32,000 nt of DNA from Candidatus Syntropharchaeum caldarium. Its GTDB lineage: Archaea; Halobacteriota; Syntropharchaeia; Syntropharchaeales; Syntropharchaeaceae. Every line of letters begins with the position of its first letter. Positions within the stretch are counted from its first letter, which is position 1. Made by a program: the position numbers and the translations under genes. The DNA lies in contig LYOS01000006.1 of assembly GCA_001766815.1 (NCBI GenBank), positions 20,147 to 52,146 of the forward strand, given 5' to 3'. Shown here in pieces: positions 26,860 through 32,000 of the stretch. The notes under the pieces were generated by a model. It made no database searches. It was given only the letters and a program-made list of their open reading frames with translations, and was not told the DNA's origin.

Positions 26860-27555
26860 ATGTTCGATGAACATTCTAAAAATGATCTATCTGTGAAGGA
26901 TTATGTTACTAAGCTGTTTGAGTATGGTAAATACGAACAGCTGAGGGTGATCGATGAAGTACTGAACAGTACAGATAAACGAGGAGTTCGGGGCGTATAT
27001 GAGATCACTGAAGAGCAAAAGAGACCGCGAAAATTTGAGCCCTACCCTGGCATCATAGAAGAGCATGAAAATTATATCGCCATTTCACCTGCTGTGATAG
27101 ATGAATTAAGTGATGTTATTAACAGCGAAAAAGAAAAAAGAACGGCTGATCTGAGAAATGCTGTATCGAAAAAAATAGAGGAACTACAACAAAAAAAACC
27201 TGGCGTTGAGGTCGATCATGTGGATGAGAGAATGTTGAAGATCAAATCACAGGACGACATGCCACTGTATATTTATATATCAACATGGCTAATTCGAAGC
27301 GATTTTAAAAAGACTTTTGATGATGACTCACATCTTGTAATTTCAGTTACACATCAGCCAGTTCATTCTATTGTGAATTTTGTCGATGAGAACCAGAGTT
27401 TATTCGATTCCTTACTGGCAATTTCGTTTTATGAAAGTGATTATCCCGAGACGAAATCGTTTATAAGGGTTTTGCGGGGCTATAAACATCCGTTGCTGAA
27501 TGAAATTTTTGTCGGATCCGCGTACTCATACTTCAATCGGATAAGTATGTGGTAG
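26860..27555 (+). CDS. hypothetical protein (231 aa), no recognisable domain
   Basis: This is a long ORF in AT-rich DNA with a purine-rich stretch (gagaggaatgaataATG) upstream. It is acidic and Lys-rich with a central coiled-coil-like EKEKRTADLRNAVSKKIEELQQKK. I recognised no family. Confidence 0.5.
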   Translation: MFDEHSKNDLSVKDYVTKLFEYGKYEQLRVIDEVLNSTDKRGVRGVYEITEEQKRPRKFEPYPGIIEEHENYIAISPAVIDELSDVINSEKEKRTADLRNAVSKKIEELQQKKPGVEVDHVDERMLKIKSQDDMPLYIYISTWLIRSDFKKTFDDDSHLVISVTHQPVHSIVNFVDENQSLFDSLLAISFYESDYPETKSFIRVLRGYKHPLLNEIFVGSAYSYFNRISMW

Positions 27556-27707
27556 AGGAGAACTGCCTTCAGCAGACCAGTTTGGTGAAGTCTTTATCAA
27601 AGGCATCTTGTAGAGCTGTACATCATGGGGGTTCAGATTGAGTGAGCTCTTTCACACTACCGAAAAACATAAGTGAAAACAAAAAAGCTTATCAAAAATT
27701 AGAAAAA

Positions 27708-27717
27708 CTTTAAATAC
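27708..27717 (+). promoter_or_regulatory. TATA-like box upstream of the disrupted hsdM 5' region
   Basis: ctttaaatac follows an A-rich tract and lies about 10-20 nt upstream of where the hsdM-related reading frame opens (27726). Pattern only. Confidence 0.25.
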
Positions 27718-27725
27718 TGGTATAA

Positions 27726-28308
27726 CTGAGTCCCTTTATAAACCATACTGAAGCCAAGCTCCCAAAGTGGCTTGAGAGCAGATATTCAATACTATGGGAT
27801 GCTTTTGCTGATTCAAACTTCAGAATGGAGGATGCTGCAAAGGTTTTAGAGGAGAAGAAAAAGATAGCAGGGATCAGGTTGGTGTAATTCTTTCTGAGCT
27901 TAGAAAAAATGATTGGCTACAGGTAGAGCTTGATCCAGAGGATGCAAGAAAAAGACTTTACAGGCTTAAAAGCAAGGAAGAAATTATATCTGAAACTATT
28001 TCTCTCAAGAATAACAGGCTAACAAGGGGCGAGATCGAGGTTCTCTTGAAGAGGGCAGCAGATCTTATACGCACAGGGTTGACTACACCTTCATCCTTGT
28101 CCTTCTCTTCTACAAGAGGATCAGCGATAAGTGGGAGATTGAGTATGAAAGAGCTTATAAAGAGGCTCTTGAGGATGGATTCAGTGAGGAGGAGGCAAGA
28201 GAAGAAGCAAAAAGCTCAATCTATCACGATTTTGACCTTCCTGAGGAGTTTCTGTGGGAGAAGATCAGAAAGTATCCATCTAAATTATCAGAAAACTTCT
28301 CTAAAGCG
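27726..28308 (+). pseudogene. hsdM: frameshift-disrupted 5' part of hsdM (wHTH-like extension plus HsdM N-terminal domain)
   Basis: One coherent protein can only be read by joining three frames. Frame A (27726-27887) reads ..LPKWLESRYSILWDAFADSNFRMEDAAKVLEEKKK. Frame B (open 27812-28312, with no start codon before 28046) reads DSRDQVGVILSELRKNDWLQVELDPEDARKRLYRLKSKEE...TRGEIEVLLKRAADLIRT. Frame C (open from 28015, continuous with 28309..29511) reads VDYTFILVLLFYKRISDKWEIEYE.... The last two pieces together give the HsdM_N signature (L.KAAD.LR....Y....L.LLF.KRISD). Confidence 0.6.
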
Positions 28309-29511
28309 ATGAAAGCGATTGCTGAGAGAAATCCAGAGCTTAGAGATGTCTTTGAGAATATCGATTTCCTTCAGTTCACATCAAGCAGGGAGAATACAGA
28401 GATGCTGGGACAGCTTGTTGAGATCTTCAGCGCAAAACCCCTCCATCATGTATCCCCTGATATACTTGGGGATGCCTATGAGTGGATTCTGCATTACTTC
28501 GCCCCACAGAAGGCAAAGGAAGGGGAGGTTTACACACCGAGGGAGGTTATAAAGCTCCTGGTCGAGATACTCGATCCAGAGCCTGAAGAGAGCGTGTATG
28601 ATCCAGCCTGTGGATCTGGGGGCATGCTCATAATCTCATACAGGCACGTTGAGAATTTGCATGGTAAAGAAGGAGCGGAAAAGCTGTTTCTCTTCGGACA
28701 GGAGGCAAATCCAAAGACACTTGCCCTTTCAAAGATGAACCTGTATATCCATGATATAAGAAATGCCCAGCTTGCACACGGCGATACCCTGCTCTATCCA
28801 AAGTTCAAAGAAGGTGATGGGCAGAAGAGGTTTGATATCGTCATAGCAAACCCACCCTGGAATCAGGACGGCTACAGTGAGAATGAGCTTAAGAAGGGTG
28901 AGTTCTGGAATAAGCGGTTCAGATATGGCTTTACTCCAAAGCAGTCTGCAGACTGGGCATGGATCCAGCACATGATCGCATCTGCAGACGAGGATGGAAG
29001 GGTTGGAGTTGTTATTGACAATGGCTGTCTCTTCAGGGGTGGGAAGGAGAAGGCGATAAGGAAAGGAATACTGAGGGATGATCTGGTTGAGTGTGTTATT
29101 CTGCTCCCTGAAAAGCTCTTCTACAACACTGGGGCACCAGGGGCTGTACTCATTTTCAAAAAGAATAAGCCTGATGAGAGAAAAGGCAAGGTTCTCTTTA
29201 TCAATGCATCAAATGAGTATGAGCAGCATCCTGAAGTGAGAAAGCTCAATCGCTTAGGAGATGAACACATTGAGAAGATCGCCAGTGCCTATCGAGAATT
29301 TAAGGAAATGGATGGGTTTACAAGGGTTGTTGACCTTGAAGAGATCAAAGAGAATGATTACAACCTGAATGTAACCCTGTATGTCTTTCCAGAGGAGGAA
29401 GTTGAGGAGATTGATGTCGGCAAGGAATGGGAGGAGCTTAAGAGGATTGAAGGAGAGATAATGGAGGTTGAGGAGAGGATTGAGGGGTATTTGAGGGAGG
29501 TTGGGGTTTGA
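28309..29511 (+). CDS. hsdM: type I restriction-modification N6-adenine DNA methyltransferase subunit (catalytic part)
   Basis: It has TPREVIKLLVEILDP, motif I DPACGSGGML, motif IV IANPPWN, and a Glu-rich coiled-coil C-terminus. The frame stays open upstream to 28015 with no start codon (see the pseudogene entry). Confidence 0.9.
   Translation: MKAIAERNPELRDVFENIDFLQFTSSRENTEMLGQLVEIFSAKPLHHVSPDILGDAYEWILHYFAPQKAKEGEVYTPREVIKLLVEILDPEPEESVYDPACGSGGMLIISYRHVENLHGKEGAEKLFLFGQEANPKTLALSKMNLYIHDIRNAQLAHGDTLLYPKFKEGDGQKRFDIVIANPPWNQDGYSENELKKGEFWNKRFRYGFTPKQSADWAWIQHMIASADEDGRVGVVIDNGCLFRGGKEKAIRKGILRDDLVECVILLPEKLFYNTGAPGAVLIFKKNKPDERKGKVLFINASNEYEQHPEVRKLNRLGDEHIEKIASAYREFKEMDGFTRVVDLEEIKENDYNLNVTLYVFPEEEVEEIDVGKEWEELKRIEGEIMEVEERIEGYLREVGV
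29476..29493 (+). repeat. direct repeat copy 1 (hsdM 3' end), partner at 30397..30414
   Basis: AGGATTGAGGGGTATTTG here versus AGGATTGAGGAGTATTTG at the partner site, 17/18 identical. Both are in frame, encoding RIEGYL and RIEEYL, and each ends 5-6 codons before a stop. Confidence 0.8.
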
Positions 29512-29572
29512 TAGAGGTACAAAAGAAGATGATCAAAACCGGAAAGATGACTGTAAACTCGCAGAAGTCGAT

Positions 29573-29635
29573 ATGGTCTCAGAGGAGTGGGTTTGGAGAG
29601 AGTTGATAGGTTATGGGAAGGAAAGTAAAAGATAG
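29573..29635 (+). pseudogene. hsdS: relic hsdS 5' end (20-codon stub)
   Basis: The stub MVSEEWVWRELIGYGKESKR* parallels the N-terminus of the intact hsdS at 31734 (..IPEEWEVVRLGEVITYVKGKK). It shares the exact 12-mer CAGAGGAGTGGG (29580-29591 versus 31786-31797). Confidence 0.45.
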
Positions 29636-30350
29636 AGAAGATGATGATAGGAAAAAGATGACGATCGGGGAACTGAACAAAATTTACTATGGACCTGATA
29701 GGGATGGTAGAAATGTATCGGTAAATGAAATAAAAGGATATGAGGACTTCCAGAGGGGCCGTATCCTTTCTCCATTAAGAGAAAAAGATGTTAAACGATT
29801 CTTTGCTCCCATTGGTGAGGTTGAAAAAATACCAAGAAACAACCAGAAGAAGACCAATGACTTTAAGATAGAGAGTGAGAAACTTATGATAGAGGTAAAG
29901 TCAATAAACACAACCGTTAATGCAACTGGAGAGCAGGACGAAGATGGAAACATCCCGATTAACTTACCTGGAAATGAAAACAAGTTTATCGAAAGAATAA
30001 ATAGATGTATAGAACTTGCAGAAGCGAAAGAAGACGCCCCTGAAGACTATAAGAAGGTCGTTGTCATACATCTTGACCCTGTGATGCTTGGACTTAACCC
30101 TGATCTTCCGGATAAGGTATTTCATCCCGAGTTTATTAAAAAGACAAGTTTTATCTATAGTTCTCTTGATGGTTTGATCTTTTTGCCACCAAAAATTGGA
30201 TTCATCAAAAGTTATGGAGAGACACCACCAGGACCGATATGTTACAGACCGATAGGTTACGTGAAAGGTCATAAGATGATGGAATTGCTGAGTAAAATCA
30301 ATGAATTGGAAGTAAAGCTTTTGGAGGATGAAGATGACGCGAAGATATGA
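29613..30350 (+). CDS. hypothetical protein with PD-(D/E)xK-like nuclease motif (245 aa)
   Basis: TNDFKIESEKLMIEVKSIN carries D83...E94-V-K96. This has the D-x(10)-E-x-K spacing and the hydrophobic-EVKS strand typical of Hjc/NucS/restriction-endonuclease-fold proteins. An alternative start is ATG 29658 (MTIGELNK). No family name was recognised. Confidence 0.55.
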   Translation: MGRKVKDREDDDRKKMTIGELNKIYYGPDRDGRNVSVNEIKGYEDFQRGRILSPLREKDVKRFFAPIGEVEKIPRNNQKKTNDFKIESEKLMIEVKSINTTVNATGEQDEDGNIPINLPGNENKFIERINRCIELAEAKEDAPEDYKKVVVIHLDPVMLGLNPDLPDKVFHPEFIKKTSFIYSSLDGLIFLPPKIGFIKSYGETPPGPICYRPIGYVKGHKMMELLSKINELEVKLLEDEDDAKI

Positions 30351-30435
30351 TCGAGCAGGGTATGAGGGGGCCCTGAAAGGAAAAGACAGGCTTGGAAGGA
30401 TTGAGGAGTATTTGGATGAATTAAGGAGGTTATAG
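30334..30435 (+). pseudogene. relic hsdM 3' end, or a 33-aa coupled micro-ORF
   Basis: It reads MTRRYDRAGYEGALKGKDRLGRIEEYLDELRRL*. GGAGGA lies 5 nt upstream. It contains repeat copy 2 (30397-30414) of the hsdM terminus. Its TAG overlaps the GTG of the next gene by 1 nt (TAGTG at 30433-30437). Confidence 0.4.
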
Positions 30436-30644
30436 TGTCTTTAAAAATTATTCTTAATCTCTTTATTGATCATCCCTTGGCAGCGATCATTTCTCTATTA
30501 TTTGGTGGCGGGATTTTATTTGGACTTATTGGAGGATTAACAGGAATAGAGTTTTTCTTAGATCATTGGATGACATTGATTGGTTTAGGCGCTTTAATCA
30601 TTCTGCTAAGTTTTGCGTTGGAATTATTAAGAGAGGGATATTGA
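30435..30644 (+). CDS. small membrane protein, two predicted TM helices (69 aa)
   Basis: The start is GTG, preceded by AAGGAGG. The sequence has two hydrophobic Gly-rich segments: PLAAIISLLFGGGILFGLIGGLTGI and WMTLIGLGALIILLSFALELL. Its stop TGA abuts the next ATG (TGAATG). Confidence 0.6.
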   Translation: MSLKIILNLFIDHPLAAIISLLFGGGILFGLIGGLTGIEFFLDHWMTLIGLGALIILLSFALELLREGY

Positions 30645-31733
30645 ATGGAGAGTAACTATATAAATCAGACTCCAAAAAAATGGGGGGAGTTGAGTGCAAA
30701 CACAAAGACAAAAGATGAGATAAAACTTGAAGTCTATTCAGATGAAATAAACAGAGTCAAATTATCTATTGATAACTCGGTCTGGATGTATATAGGAGCG
30801 CTTTTTGTTCCGATAAACTTCAAGGATTATTGCCTTACGAAGCTAAATAATTTACGATGTGTGAAATATGGAAACTGGCACGATGAAGAATCGGAATGTC
30901 CCCAACAATGTGGCTTCCATGAGGATAACGATACAGAAATCCACTATAAAAACCTGCATAAATCTAAATCCGATGCAGGGCCCAAGATAGCCAAAAACTG
31001 GATAAATAAGTTTATGATTCAAGAAAGCTGTCAAAAACATCGCAAACCGGTTTATTTAAACATCCTTGGTTTAAATCTCTCAAATATGAACCTTGAACTA
31101 TTCGGGGAAAATAAAGGTCGTGATCTCACGATCTACAATCGATTCTATAGGTCCGTATTGAAAGGTGGCATTAATTATTTCTTTAGGGATTACAGAAGAA
31201 TCACAATACGCCAAATATACCATGACAAAGGAAGTCAGGAGACACATGAGCTATTTTCATGGCACCCGATTTATAGGATTGGTTTAGAGAGTGAAAAAAT
31301 AAAGATAGAAAGGGATGAAATCGAATTTATCGATTCAGATCATAGAAAAAGTGGAAAAAAAGAATCGCACTTCATACAATTGATAGACCTAATCTTGGGT
31401 GCTACATACGTCTGCCTCCATAACCCATCCGATAGAAGAGAGAAGAAAGAGGTTGGTCTTGCCTTTAAACCGGCGTTAACGGTACTACTTGACCGCAAGA
31501 AAAACCCGAACAACAATTACATGGAAGGTTCTTACTACCACAGTAATTATTACAGGACATATCAGATATCTTTCTTTCCTAAAAAGAAGATGGAACTTGA
31601 TGAAATCTTTAATCAACTGGATGTATATGGTAATCAAATGACTGAAAATATGAGAATTGAGGATAATTTCTATTACGATCGCCCCATTTTGCTCACCGAC
31701 CCATCTCAACGTGATTTAACAGGGTGGTTCTAA
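30645..31733 (+). CDS. hypothetical 362-aa protein with Cys/His cluster and QLxDLIxG motif (possibly a distant DUF3800-like protein)
   Basis: It has C72-x6-H79-x5-C85-x3-C89-x2-H92 (CVKYGNWHDEESECPQQCGFH) and FIDSDHRKSGKKESHFIQLIDLILGATY (aa 228-255). The latter resembles the C-terminal DS...QLaDliaG motif I recall for DUF3800, but the N-terminal DES motif is absent (MYIGALFVP). Its stop TAA abuts the hsdS ATG. Confidence 0.6.
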   Translation: MESNYINQTPKKWGELSANTKTKDEIKLEVYSDEINRVKLSIDNSVWMYIGALFVPINFKDYCLTKLNNLRCVKYGNWHDEESECPQQCGFHEDNDTEIHYKNLHKSKSDAGPKIAKNWINKFMIQESCQKHRKPVYLNILGLNLSNMNLELFGENKGRDLTIYNRFYRSVLKGGINYFFRDYRRITIRQIYHDKGSQETHELFSWHPIYRIGLESEKIKIERDEIEFIDSDHRKSGKKESHFIQLIDLILGATYVCLHNPSDRREKKEVGLAFKPALTVLLDRKKNPNNNYMEGSYYHSNYYRTYQISFFPKKKMELDEIFNQLDVYGNQMTENMRIEDNFYYDRPILLTDPSQRDLTGWF

Positions 31734-32000
31734 ATGAATCTCAAGGAAGAATCTGGATACAAACAAACTCCAATCGGCAAAATTCCAGAGGAGTGGGAGG
31801 TTGTTAGACTTGGAGAAGTTATAACTTACGTTAAGGGTAAGAAACCAGAGATCATGGTAGAAGAATACCAAGAAGAATGCTTGCCATACCTTTCAACTGA
31901 TTATTTAAGAAATGGGAAAGCTACGCAGTTTGTTAGAATTACAGGAAGTGAAATTGTAGTAGAGGAAGGAGATATCATATTATTATGGGACGGCTCTAAT
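31734..32000 (+). CDS. hsdS: type I R-M specificity subunit, 5' part (runs off window end)
   Basis: Absent from the ORF track because there is no stop in the window. My translation reads MNLKEESGYKQTPIGKIPEEWEVVRLGEVITYVKGKKPE...GDIILLWDGSN, which is the typical HsdS TRD1 opening (P.(E/G)W....LGE...........GD.L....GS.). Confidence 0.85.
   Translation, partial: MNLKEESGYKQTPIGKIPEEWEVVRLGEVITYVKGKKPEIMVEEYQEECLPYLSTDYLRNGKATQFVRITGSEIVVEEGDIILLWDGSN

What the first reader, a model, noticed from the sequence alone, without database searches (positions are those of the whole stretch)
29476..31797. Duplicated hsdM-3'/hsdS-5' junction: the locus is a chimera of two type I systems
Two direct repeats frame the cassette genes.

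1. AGGATTGAGGGGTATTTG (29476-29493, real hsdM 3' end, encoding RIEGYL then 5 codons and a stop) recurs as AGGATTGAGGAGTATTTG (30397-30414, encoding RIEEYL then 6 codons and a stop). The second copy lies immediately before the 69-aa gene.
2. CAGAGGAGTGGG (29580-29591) lies in a 20-codon stub, MVSEEWVWRELIGYGK. It recurs at 31786-31797 in the intact hsdS N-terminus (IPEEWEVVRLGEV).

The order is therefore: hsdM, hsdS-5' stub, orf245, hsdM-3' stub, TM69, orf362, hsdS.

The simplest reading has two steps. An ancestral hsdM'-TM69-orf362-hsdS locus recombined with a second hsdM-hsdS locus. orf245 now sits where hsdS of one system and most of hsdM of the other were lost.

This would be direct evidence that the M/S junction acts as a cassette-exchange hotspot.
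Basis: seen in the sequence. Interest (0 to 1): 0.7.

Follow-up and report, generated by a model that had tools for sequence, protein, structure and literature searches.

The report
Leftover hsdM tail in mosaic restriction operon
A broken archaeal type I restriction-modification operon carries accessory genes between its methylase and specificity genes, plus a 13-codon leftover of a second methylase gene; this probably marks a past gene swap, and is a modest addition to a known kind of mosaic locus.

Summary
Both repeats are at the stated coordinates, but neither stands out as DNA. The window holds one other unrelated 17/18 pair and 73 exact 12-mer pairs.

**Second copy (30397-30414): probably a real relic.**
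- It lies in GRIEEYLDELRRL*, which fits the C-terminal signature of this HsdM family.
- That signature occurs 40 times in 979 kb of related loci: 35 true hsdM ends, 3 copies of this stub, 1 similar relic (L061) and 1 stray.
- The stub matches a P0129-type hsdM at 25/29 nt. That gene is followed by DUF3800, a small gene and hsdS.
- Its stop overlaps the start of the 69-aa gene.

**The "hsdS-5' stub": not supported.**
- It scores at noise against HsdS N-termini.
- It lies in a 60-nt leader that travels with orf245 next to type IIG enzymes, with no type I genes nearby.

- The "real" hsdM is a pseudogene: a lost start codon and two 1-bp deletions.
- About three quarters of related loci carry genes between hsdM and hsdS.
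- Homology between near-identical hsdM genes usually ends within about 140 nt of the stop.

Verdict: partly supported. A second hsdM allele contributed; two complete M-S systems are not shown. Moderate interest.

The parts
27738..29511 (+). hsdM_A, a pseudogene. It would encode about 590 aa with a wHTH, HsdM_N and N6_Mtase domains. Three lesions: ATA in place of ATG at 27738-27740, A5 in place of A6 at 27858-27862, and a 1-bp deletion near 28075. Only a 400-aa ORF (28309-29511) stays open.
   Evidence: - Pfam N6_Mtase, E 6e-119.
- 97.8% DNA identity to the intact allele L029/P0121 over 27664-29450, with two 1-bp gaps and a start-codon change.
- The start-codon loss and the A5 run recur in the Logan contig L115 of run SRR3669912. 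That contig is 100% identical to the window, so it may come from the same reads.
29451..29511 (+). 3' tail of hsdM_A (GEIMEVEERIEGYLREVGV*). It is not shared with the 97.8%-identical allele L029. It holds repeat copy 1 (29476-29493) and half of a tandem 33-nt repeat (29441-29506).
   Evidence: - Homology to L029 stops at 29450.
- The tandem repeat is family D1.
- The tail fits the family consensus.
29512..29552 (+). Spacer of unknown origin between the hsdM_A stop and the orf245 leader.
   Evidence: No match found to any fetched locus.
29553..29612 (+). Conserved leader of orf245.
   Evidence: - 31/60 and 30/60 identities, in register with the ATG, to L030 and L031. There orf245 follows a type IIG enzyme.
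- 1 and 3 of 20000 shuffles reach these values, and they exceed all 80 shifted registers.
- Also present in L034 at 96% identity.
29613..30350 (+). orf245, an uncharacterised accessory gene. It is possibly nuclease-like, with invariant E57, D83, E94 and K139.
   Evidence: - M1 and G2 are invariant, so the ATG at 29613 is the start.
- Only 7 close homologues; about 100 representatives with a profile search.
- It lies 150 nt downstream of MmeI-like type IIG enzymes in L030-L033.
- No Pfam, NCBIfam, PADLOC or PDB match.
- The AlphaFold model is unusable, pLDDT 43.5.
30394..30435 (+). Relic of the last 13 codons plus stop of a second hsdM allele, hsdM_B (GRIEEYLDELRRL*). It holds repeat copy 2 (30397-30414). 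Its TAG stop overlaps the GTG start of the next gene.
   Evidence: - Best non-self hit of the HsdM-tail HMM in the window.
- The family motif has one stray hit in 979 kb x 6 frames.
- 25/29 nt identical to the 3' end of the P0129-type hsdM in L116.
- Present in three other contigs, L001-L003, all 100% identical to the window.
- Homology to the orf245 block of L034 ends at 30370, just upstream.
30435..30644 (+). TM69, a 69-aa protein with two hydrophobic helices and a GTG start. Its stop abuts the start of orf362.
   Evidence: - ORF; hydropathy.
- Called as a gene in L001-L003.
- No family match.
- Not found upstream of any of 25 orf362 homologues.
30645..31733 (+). orf362, a DUF3800-like protein with an RNase H-type fold. 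It has the DE (D33 E34) and QxxD (Q245, D248) motifs and a Cys3-His cluster (C72, C85, C89, H92).
   Evidence: - Pfam DUF3800, E 0.021, below the cut-off.
- 126 homologues, mostly from methanogens; invariant columns.
- AlphaFold model with pLDDT 84.9.
- Foldseek top hits are RNase HII 1eke (E 7.7e-4) and human RNase H2.
- Homologues sit inside type I operons in L004, L005, L014 and L020.
31734..32000 (+). 5' part of hsdS (89 codons; it runs off the window). It holds the second 12-mer (31786-31797) in IPEEWEVVRLGEV.
   Evidence: - Pfam Methylase_S, E 3e-6; PADLOC Specificity_I.
- 52 bits against the family HsdS N-terminus HMM.
- L001 extends it to 164 aa.

Best explanation
**What the region is.** Window 27.7-32 kb is a decaying, mosaic type I restriction-modification operon. 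It belongs to an HsdM family in which accessory genes are normally lodged between hsdM and hsdS.

**Proposed history.**
- The ancestral arrangement (inferred) was hsdM_B - TM69 - orf362 (DUF3800-like, RNase H fold) - hsdS, with the TM69 start overlapping the hsdM_B stop.
- A block carrying another allele, hsdM_A, with its own tail and the accessory gene orf245 plus its leader, then replaced hsdM_B (inferred).
- The left crossover (inferred) lay in or left of hsdM. The right join was illegitimate, inside the last 40 nt of hsdM_B.
- This left 13 codons and the stop of hsdM_B (30394-30435) stranded between orf245 and TM69. This relic is supported by sequence evidence rather than proven.
- An equivalent route runs through a tandem hsdM_A - cassette - hsdM_B state, as seen in L074. 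Deletion would then trim hsdM_B, as in the 34-codon relic of L061.

**Later decay.** hsdM_A lost its start codon and took two frameshifts (shown), so the restriction system is probably dead.

**The first 'repeat' partner.**
- AGGATTGAGGGGTATTTG is simply the same conserved RIEGYL codons in the resident tail.
- The 12-mer at 29580 belongs to the orf245 leader, not to an hsdS remnant.

**Likely role of the accessory genes.** By analogy with other genes embedded in R-M operons, they are probably back-up defence effectors. This is inference only.
For: **The relic.**
- GRIEEYLDELRRL* fits the family tail consensus ..E.(K/R)IEGYL.EL.., seen in 120 homologues.
- The HMM of 174 tails ranks it first after the true hsdM.
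- The strict motif IExYLxE[LIV] occurs 40 times in 979 kb x 6 frames. These are 35 true hsdM ends, 3 copies of this stub, 1 relic in L061 and 1 stray.
- 25/29 nt are identical to the hsdM 3' end of L116, beyond the 18-mer shared with the resident tail.
- The stop/start overlap with TM69 is typical of the first gene after hsdM in this family, where offsets run from -22 to +3.

**Parental-type architectures exist.**
- L116/L117: hsdM (tail GRIEEYLGELKDKV) - DUF3800 - 56 aa - hsdS - ... - hsdR.
- L005: hsdM - X - orf362 homologue - hsdS - hsdR. L004, L020 and L014 also hold orf362 homologues inside type I operons.
- L074: hsdM_A - toxin/antitoxin - hsdM_B - hsdS.
- L061: a 34-codon hsdM tail relic, 39 bits, E 1e-9.

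**Mosaic boundaries.**
- L029 is 97.8% identical over 27664-29450 only.
- L034 is 96% identical over 29556-30370 only.
- L004 is 78.6% identical over 30711-31737 only.
- GC content is 0.45-0.49 in hsdM and 0.36-0.385 from 29.6 kb onward.

**Junction behaviour in the family.**

**Pseudogene.**

**The leader is not hsdS.**
Against: - The relic is only 13 codons long. At the DNA level it is not significant (nhmmer E 0.93 with a large composition-bias correction). As a window-wide HMM hit it has E 0.68.
- I chose the motif after seeing the stub, although it is the obvious conserved core of the family.
- No contig was found that carries the proposed parent, an intact hsdM ending GRIEEYLDELRRL* followed by TM69.
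- TM69 is seen nowhere else.
- The stretch 27958-29555, which includes the join between hsdM_A and the orf245 block, is covered by this window's assembly alone. Logan contigs break on both sides of it.
- The best tblastn hit of the 'hsdS stub' peptide in about 1 Mb of loci is the N-terminus of an HsdS (E 0.12, two gaps). An old hsdS origin of the orf245 leader therefore cannot be excluded.
Confidence: 0.68

Rival explanations
1. Two complete hsdM-hsdS systems recombined. The 29501-29635 ORF is the 5' end of the first system's hsdS, and orf245 replaced the rest of that hsdS and most of the second hsdM.
For: - The ORF overlaps the hsdM stop, as hsdS genes do in this family.
- Its best tblastn/blastx hit among all fetched loci is residues 2-26 of the HsdS of L036/L041. 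The alignment is KLAEVDMVSEEW against KLTKIEMIPKEW, E 0.12-0.22.
- The per-peptide p for the HsdS N-terminus HMM is about 0.005.
Against: - The HMM score is at noise level in the window: 2.9 bits, E 7.7, about 9th.
- The segment 29553-29612 is homologous, in register, to the leader of orf245 genes that follow type IIG enzymes in L030 and L031. There the reading is EEP/EEQ instead of EEW.
- The 12/12 DNA match is one of 73 such pairs in the window.
Confidence: 0.15
2. The match at 30397-30414 is chance. It is a purine-rich Glu/Arg/Ile codon run in a spurious or independent 35-codon ORF, and the locus has only ever had one hsdM.
For: - The DNA-level statistics are weak.
- Coiled-coil-like E/R/L/I-rich peptides are common.
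- The resident tail itself holds an internal 33-nt tandem repeat with the same AGGATTGA core.
Against: - The family motif followed by a stop has one stray occurrence in about 2 million codon positions of comparable DNA, which gives about 0.03 expected per window.
- The hit lies in the right strand, 0.9 kb downstream of hsdM and exactly abutting a gene start.
- It extends to 25/29 nt against another hsdM allele.
- A Fic-remnant alternative scores -1.5 bits.
Confidence: 0.12
3. The relic is a local duplication of the resident hsdM tail, made when orf245 was inserted (a target-site or att-like duplication). It is not a piece of a second allele.
For: - The two 18-mers flank a 921-bp insert as direct repeats.
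- Elements that insert into the 3' ends of genes typically leave such duplications (my own knowledge).
Against: - Outside the 18-mer the two tails differ completely: REVGV* against DELRRL*.
- The stub is closer to the hsdM of L116 than to the resident tail.
- No integrase or transposase match among the ORFs scanned between 26.8 and 32 kb.
- Homology to the orf245 block of L034 ends 27 nt before the right repeat, not at it.
Confidence: 0.05
4. The join between hsdM_A and the orf245 block is a metagenome assembly chimera between co-occurring strains. The order hsdM - orf245 - relic would then not exist in any one genome.
For: - The Logan contigs of the same runs break at 27957 and restart at 29841-29979.
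- An intact, 97.8%-identical hsdM allele with a different tail (L029) and an orf245 variant (L034) come from one related metagenome.
Against: - An 18-nt imperfect repeat is too short to mislead an assembler.
- The orf245 - relic - TM69 - orf362 - hsdS part is 100% identical in three other contigs, so the relic and its odd position stand regardless.
Confidence: 0.07

Closest known systems
Accessory or 'second-line' defence genes embedded in type I R-M operons (PrrC in EcoprrI, RloC, Abi2, AbiJ, ApeA, Fic/Doc, RhuM)
   Same: - Unrelated genes sit on the same strand inside an hsd operon.
- In the comparison set the inserts include Fic, Schlafen/AlbA_2, AbiJ, ORF6N, HEPN-NTase, toxin-antitoxin pairs and DUF3800.
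- This matches the gene neighbourhoods described in PMC3710099 and the PrrC case in PMC12707154.
   Different: - The inserts here (orf245, TM69, a 362-aa DUF3800-like protein) are uncharacterised.
- They lie between hsdM and hsdS.
- No functional link to the R-M enzyme was tested, and the hsdM is a pseudogene.
Recombination-driven mosaicism of type I loci (swapping of hsdS target-recognition domains, allelic exchange among hsd genes)
   Same: - Conserved hsd sequence acts as the anchor and variable DNA is exchanged between anchors.
- L047 and L058 share 97-98% identical hsdM. Homology resumes at the hsdS 3' end, with the conserved central hsdS region also shared.
   Different: - The exchanged unit here includes the last 60-140 nt of hsdM and whole accessory genes, not only recognition domains.
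- A stranded hsdM tail records an imprecise join. I found no paper describing such relics in six literature searches.
DUF3800 (PF12686), an RNase H2-like domain found as a retron type VII partner
   Same: - orf362 has the N-terminal DE motif and the C-terminal QxxD motif that define DUF3800 in PMC7736814.
- Its model matches RNase HII/H2.
   Different: - It scores below the Pfam cut-off (16 against 21 bits).
- It is about 150 residues longer than typical members.
- It has a Cys3-His insertion.
- Its context is a type I operon, not a retron.
Displaced 3'-end stubs left by elements that integrate into the 3' ends of genes such as tRNA genes
   Same: An incoming block brings its own copy of the gene's 3' end. 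The gene therefore stays open while the old end is stranded downstream as a direct repeat.
   Different: - No recombinase gene is nearby.
- The repeats are short and diverged.
- The breakpoints do not coincide with the repeat.
- Homologous plus illegitimate recombination explains it better.

Membership tests
Type I restriction-modification system | HsdM with an N6-adenine methyltransferase domain | tested here: met
   Pfam N6_Mtase E 6e-119; PADLOC MTase_I E 5e-100.
Type I restriction-modification system | An intact, full-length hsdM reading frame | tested here: not met
   Start codon ATA, plus two 1-bp deletions relative to the intact 590-aa allele P0121. Two of the lesions recur in contig L115.
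Type I restriction-modification system | HsdS specificity subunit with Methylase_S recognition domains | tested here: met
   Methylase_S E 3e-6 on the 89 codons in the window. L001 extends it to 164 aa. The full length was not seen.
Type I restriction-modification system | HsdR helicase-nuclease subunit in the locus | not testable with these tools
   The window and all contigs of this lineage end inside hsdS.
hsdM 3'-end relic (30394-30435) | C-terminal signature of this HsdM family followed closely by a stop | tested here: met
   IEEYLDEL lies 3 codons before a stop. It is the top non-self hit of the tail HMM. The motif has one stray in 979 kb x 6 frames.
hsdM 3'-end relic (30394-30435) | Nucleotide similarity to hsdM 3' ends beyond chance | tested here: inconclusive
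   25/29 nt match L116 (E 1e-6 in a 0.3-kb search), but the nhmmer family profile gives E 0.93 in the window.
hsdS 5'-end relic (29501-29635) | Match to HsdS N-termini of the family, including the conserved IPxxW..L core | tested here: not met
   2.9 bits, E 7.7. Ser replaces the near-invariant Pro. The best pairwise hit has E 0.12-0.22 and needs two gaps.
hsdS 5'-end relic (29501-29635) | The segment occurs only in type I contexts | tested here: not met
   29553-29612 is conserved in register upstream of orf245 in L030 and L031, next to type IIG enzymes.
Genes embedded in R-M operons (PrrC/Rlo-like arrangement) | Located inside an hsd operon on the same strand | tested here: met
   orf245, TM69 and orf362 lie between hsdM and hsdS, all on the + strand.
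Genes embedded in R-M operons (PrrC/Rlo-like arrangement) | Homologues recur inside other R-M loci | tested here: met
   - orf362 homologues lie in the type I operons of L004, L005, L014 and L020, and next to large upstream genes in L023 and L025 that I read, without a domain scan, as type IIG-like methylase-nucleases.
- orf245 lies next to type IIG enzymes.
- TM69 does not recur.
Genes embedded in R-M operons (PrrC/Rlo-like arrangement) | Defence activity, or activation when the R-M enzyme is inhibited | not testable with these tools
   This needs experiments.
DUF3800 (PF12686) | Pfam score at or above the gathering cut-off | tested here: not met
   16.0 bits against a 21-bit cut-off, E 0.021. 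A few homologues carry a precomputed PF12686 hit.
DUF3800 (PF12686) | N-terminal DE motif, C-terminal QxxD motif and an RNase H-like fold | tested here: met
   D33, E34, Q245 and D248 are invariant or nearly so. Foldseek top hits are RNase HII/H2, prob 1.0, E 7.7e-4. The motif definition comes from PMC7736814.
PD-(D/E)xK nuclease (for orf245) | Recognisable fold or profile match, and a D...(D/E)xK catalytic set | tested here: inconclusive
   - E57, D83, E94 and K139 are invariant, but the Lys of 'ExK' is not conserved.
- There are only scattered sub-threshold hits to REase-like Pfam families.
- There is no PDB hit, and the model is poor.
Site-specific integrative element (att duplication) | A recombinase gene, and breakpoints that coincide with the direct repeat | tested here: not met
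   No integrase or transposase match among the ORFs scanned in 26.8-32 kb. Homology breaks lie 26-27 nt upstream of each repeat copy.

The most novel reading that the evidence does not exclude
In this widespread HsdM family of archaea and bacteria, the last 60-140 nt of hsdM may act as the left anchor of a family-wide exchange module. The module would be 'hsdM tail + accessory defence genes + hsdS recognition domains', moved as one unit by recombination. Stranded hsdM tails (this window, L061) and tandem hsdM genes (L074) would be the fossil record of imprecise exchanges. That would make type I operons a defined, searchable carrier for new defence genes, including the uncharacterised orf245 and Zn-cluster DUF3800-like families.
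Probability: 0.35. Interest if true: 0.55.

Novelty: new member of a known kind. Interest (0 to 1): 0.4.

Why it matters
- If the relic reading holds, it gives a concrete sequence-level trace of how accessory genes enter and leave type I restriction operons. It also gives a simple search handle: hsdM tail motifs stranded between hsdM and hsdS.
- The comparison set shows that, for this HsdM family, the hsdM-hsdS gap is a rich and largely unannotated reservoir of candidate defence genes. About 20 of 59 first-downstream genes had no family label.
- For this window itself the practical message is more modest. The restriction system is probably dead, and one of the two claimed stubs is not an hsd remnant.

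Tried and rejected
- **Fic-gene remnant at 30340-30450.** Short blastx hits such as DRAGYEGALK against DRRAYYAALK suggested it. Rejected because the Fic HMM gives -1.5 bits.
- **Structured RNA or a DUF3800-associated RNA motif in 26.5-32 kb.** Rfam gave nothing relevant.
- **TM69 as a conserved partner of orf362.** It is absent upstream of all 25 homologues and from all 80 hsdM loci.
- **Finding the source or parent contigs by exact protein look-up.** This gave only three 2-kb contigs and one 10-kb contig, and none spans hsdM.
- **Structure of orf245.** The model is unusable, pLDDT 43.5. Profile searches against PDB and Pfam were empty.
- **First attempt at a genome scan.** A 29-sequence alignment was too diverse to search with.
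- **DNA-level significance of both repeats.** Weak.
- **Literature.** Six searches found reviews of embedded genes but nothing on stranded hsdM tails.

Full report
**1. The observation**

The four coordinates are exact. AGGATTGAGGGGTATTTG (29476-29493) encodes RIEGYL five codons before the hsdM stop. AGGATTGAGGAGTATTTG (30397-30414) encodes RIEEYL six codons before a stop that overlaps the GTG start of the 69-aa gene. CAGAGGAGTGGG lies at 29580-29591 and at 31786-31797.

As DNA repeats they are unremarkable.
- The window has one other, plainly unrelated, 17/18 direct pair.
- It has 73 exact direct 12-mer pairs.
- Local alignment against shuffles gives p of about 0.01-0.03.
- An nhmmer profile of 76 hsdM 3' ends ranks the second copy only 4th in the window, E 0.93.

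**2. The genes**

- 28309-29511 is the open part of an hsdM (N6_Mtase, E 6e-119).
- 31734-32000 is the start of an hsdS.
- orf245, TM69 and orf362 match no family above threshold. orf362 is weakly DUF3800-like.
- The lineage is a Thermoplasmatales MAG, going by the name of the identical protein P0001.

**3. The hsdM is a pseudogene**

Relatives are 585-600 aa. The closest is P0121/L029, which is 97.8% identical in DNA over 27664-29450. Against it the window has three lesions:
- ATA for the ATG start at 27738-27740;
- A5 for A6 at 27858-27862;
- a 1-bp deletion near 28075.

The first two recur in the Logan contig L115. That contig is 100% identical to the window and may come from the same reads.

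**4. The second hsdM tail is probably real**

The C-termini of 120 homologues end ..E.(K/R)IEGYL.EL(K/R)xx*. Several read GRIEEYLGEL.. (P0129, P0130). The stub reads GRIEEYLDELRRL*.
- An HMM of 174 tails puts it first after the true hsdM among 1690 six-frame peptides (6.4 bits, E 0.68, aligned to the last 11 profile positions).
- The core motif IExYLxE[LIV] occurs 40 times in 979 kb x 6 frames of fetched loci. These are 35 true hsdM ends, 3 copies of this stub, one 34-codon relic in L061 and one stray. That gives about 0.03 expected per window.
- Against the hsdM 3' end of L116 (the P0129 gene) the stub matches 25/29 nt (30394-30422). It shares only the 18-mer with the resident tail.
- That pattern argues for a second allele rather than a local duplication.
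- A Fic-remnant alternative scores -1.5 bits.

The relic lies in sequence that is 100% identical in three other contigs.

**5. The 'hsdS stub' is not supported**

- An HMM of 40 HsdS N-termini gives 52 bits to the real hsdS but 2.9 bits (E 7.7) to the stub peptide. Eight other window peptides do as well.
- Its best pairwise hit is indeed the N-terminus of an HsdS (L036/L041), but with two gaps and E 0.12-0.22.
- The 60 nt before the orf245 ATG (29553-29612), which contain the 12-mer, are 52% identical in register to the same 60 nt in L030 and L031.
  - 1-3 of 20000 shuffles reach this identity, and it exceeds every shifted register.
  - In L030 and L031, orf245 follows an MmeI-like type IIG enzyme and no type I gene is present.
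  - The codons there read EEP/EEQ, not EEW.
- The segment is therefore the leader of orf245.
- M1 and G2 of orf245 are invariant, which fixes its start at 29613.

**6. The locus is a mosaic**

Each block has its own closest relative:

| Window block | Closest relative | DNA identity |
|---|---|---|
| 27664-29450 | L029 | 97.8% |
| 29556-30370 | L034 | 96% |
| 30711-31737 | L004 | 78.6% |

- After the shared block, L029 runs into a different tail and an IS-type transposase reading frame.
- After the shared block, L034 runs into a different DUF3800-type gene start.
- GC content is 0.45-0.49 in hsdM, against 0.36-0.385 from 29.6 kb onward and 0.45-0.51 in the core genes upstream.

**7. Family context**

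The metagenome scan gave 80 loci of this HsdM family. Of 59 with at least 1.5 kb downstream:
- about 14 have hsdS abutting hsdM;
- 33 have it 0.4-3.8 kb away;
- the rest show other genes first.

The inserts include Fic (about 20 loci), Schlafen/AlbA_2-wHTH (about 20), AbiJ, ORF6N/T5orf172, HEPN-NTase, DUF3800 and many unlabelled genes.

Among 27 pairs of loci with at least 88% identical hsdM DNA, homology ends between -141 and +115 nt of the stop in 20. The window/L029 pair ends at -61.

L047 and L058 share 97-98% identical hsdM. They then differ over the cassettes and the hsdS recognition domains. Homology resumes at the hsdS 3' end.

Related architectures:
- L074 has hsdM_A, a toxin/antitoxin pair, an N-truncated hsdM_B and then hsdS.
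- L061 has a 34-codon hsdM tail (39 bits, E 1e-9) 2.2 kb after the true stop.
- L116/L117, whose hsdM tail is closest to the stub, read hsdM - DUF3800 - 56 aa - hsdS - ... - hsdR.
- orf362 homologues sit inside type I operons in L004, L005, L014 and L020.

**8. The accessory genes**

*orf362*
- It has 126 homologues, mostly from methanogens.
- D33/E34, Q245/D248 and C72/C85/C89/H92 are conserved.
- DE and QxxD are the DUF3800 hallmarks, and the domain is described as RNase H2-like (PMC7736814).
- The AlphaFold model (pLDDT 84.9) matches RNase HII 1eke (E 7.7e-4) and human RNase H2.

*orf245*
- It belongs to a family of about 100 representatives, with invariant E57, D83, E94 and K139.
- It has no profile or structure match and a poor model.
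- A nuclease role is only a guess.

*TM69*
- It has two hydrophobic helices and no relatives among the fetched loci.

**9. Explanation**

The best fit is a replacement. A block carrying hsdM_A and orf245 with its leader displaced hsdM_B in an operon hsdM_B - TM69 - orf362 - hsdS. The right-hand join fell inside the last 40 nt of hsdM_B. The same end state could arise from a tandem state like L074 followed by deletion. hsdM_A was inactivated later.

- The relic (with the caveats of section 4), the mosaic boundaries, the pseudogene lesions and the family-wide junction behaviour rest on sequence evidence.
- The order of events, the crossover types and any defence role of the inserts are inferred.

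Caveats:
- The relic is short.
- No parent contig was found.
- The stretch 27958-29555 rests on a single assembly.

**10. Comparison with the known**

- Genes embedded in R-M operons (PrrC, RloC, Abi2, AbiJ, ApeA, Fic/Doc) are documented (PMC3710099; PMC12707154).
- Recombination among type I loci is documented too (titles).
- This locus is another member of that kind. Its additions are a stranded hsdM tail, two uncharacterised insert families, and the family-level breakpoint pattern found here.
- I found no paper describing hsdM-tail relics. The library is incomplete, so this is not proof of novelty.

**11. Verdict**

- Observation: partly confirmed.
- Interpretation: partly supported. Two hsdM alleles contributed, but the hsdS stub is not shown.
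- Interest: 0.4. Novelty: a new member of a known kind.

Noticed in passing
window 27738-28076: The hsdM that the finding treats as intact is a pseudogene. It has ATA for ATG at 27738-27740, A5 for A6 at 27858-27862, and a 1-bp deletion near 28075, all relative to a 97.8%-identical intact allele (L029/P0121).
   Followed up: yes
window 29441-29506: The hsdM tail contains a tandem 33-nt repeat at 76% identity (KRIEGEIMEVE / ERIEGYLREVG). The AGGATTGA core therefore occurs three times in the locus.
   Followed up: partly
window 32000 (also the ends of L002 and L003): The window and two other contigs all end at the same base inside hsdS, after codon 89. Only L001 reads on, to codon 164. This suggests a repeat or strain variation in hsdS at that point.
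   Followed up: no
window 26860-27555: A 231-aa ORF with no family match and low GC (0.37-0.40) sits between the core genes and hsdM. It may mark the left part of the island. Homology to L029 starts only at 27664.
   Followed up: partly
L030 6591-10696; L031-L033: orf245 homologues lie 150 nt downstream of large MmeI-like type IIG restriction-modification enzymes (in L031-L033 the large upstream gene was not scanned and is assumed to be the same kind). In L030 a Fic gene follows. orf245 therefore looks like an R-M-associated accessory gene in general, not a type I-specific one.
   Followed up: partly
L034 819-923: In a 96%-identical orf245 variant from the same metagenome as L029, the gene is followed not by the hsdM relic but by the start of another DUF3800-type gene (MIFCFIDESE...). 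orf245 and DUF3800-like genes are thus neighbours in two different arrangements.
   Followed up: no
L074 1-3634; L061 9435-9536: L074 has two hsdM genes in tandem, separated by a toxin/antitoxin pair, ahead of one hsdS. L061 has a 34-codon hsdM tail relic in the hsdM-hsdS gap.
   Followed up: yes
L047 vs L058; 27 locus pairs among L036-L117: Near-identical hsdM genes carry different tails, cassettes and hsdS recognition domains. Homology ends between -141 and +115 nt of the hsdM stop in 20 of 27 pairs, and in L047/L058 it resumes at the hsdS 3' end.
   Followed up: partly
L029 2216-2383: The intact hsdM allele closest to the window is followed by a reading frame that looks like the N-terminus of an IS-type transposase (judged by eye, no domain scan), rather than by hsdS or cassettes.
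   Followed up: no
window 30858-30920 (orf362 residues 72-92): orf362 and its homologues have a conserved Cys3-His cluster (C72, C85, C89, H92) inserted in the RNase H-like fold. It is likely a zinc site and is not a feature of ordinary DUF3800 proteins.
   Followed up: partly
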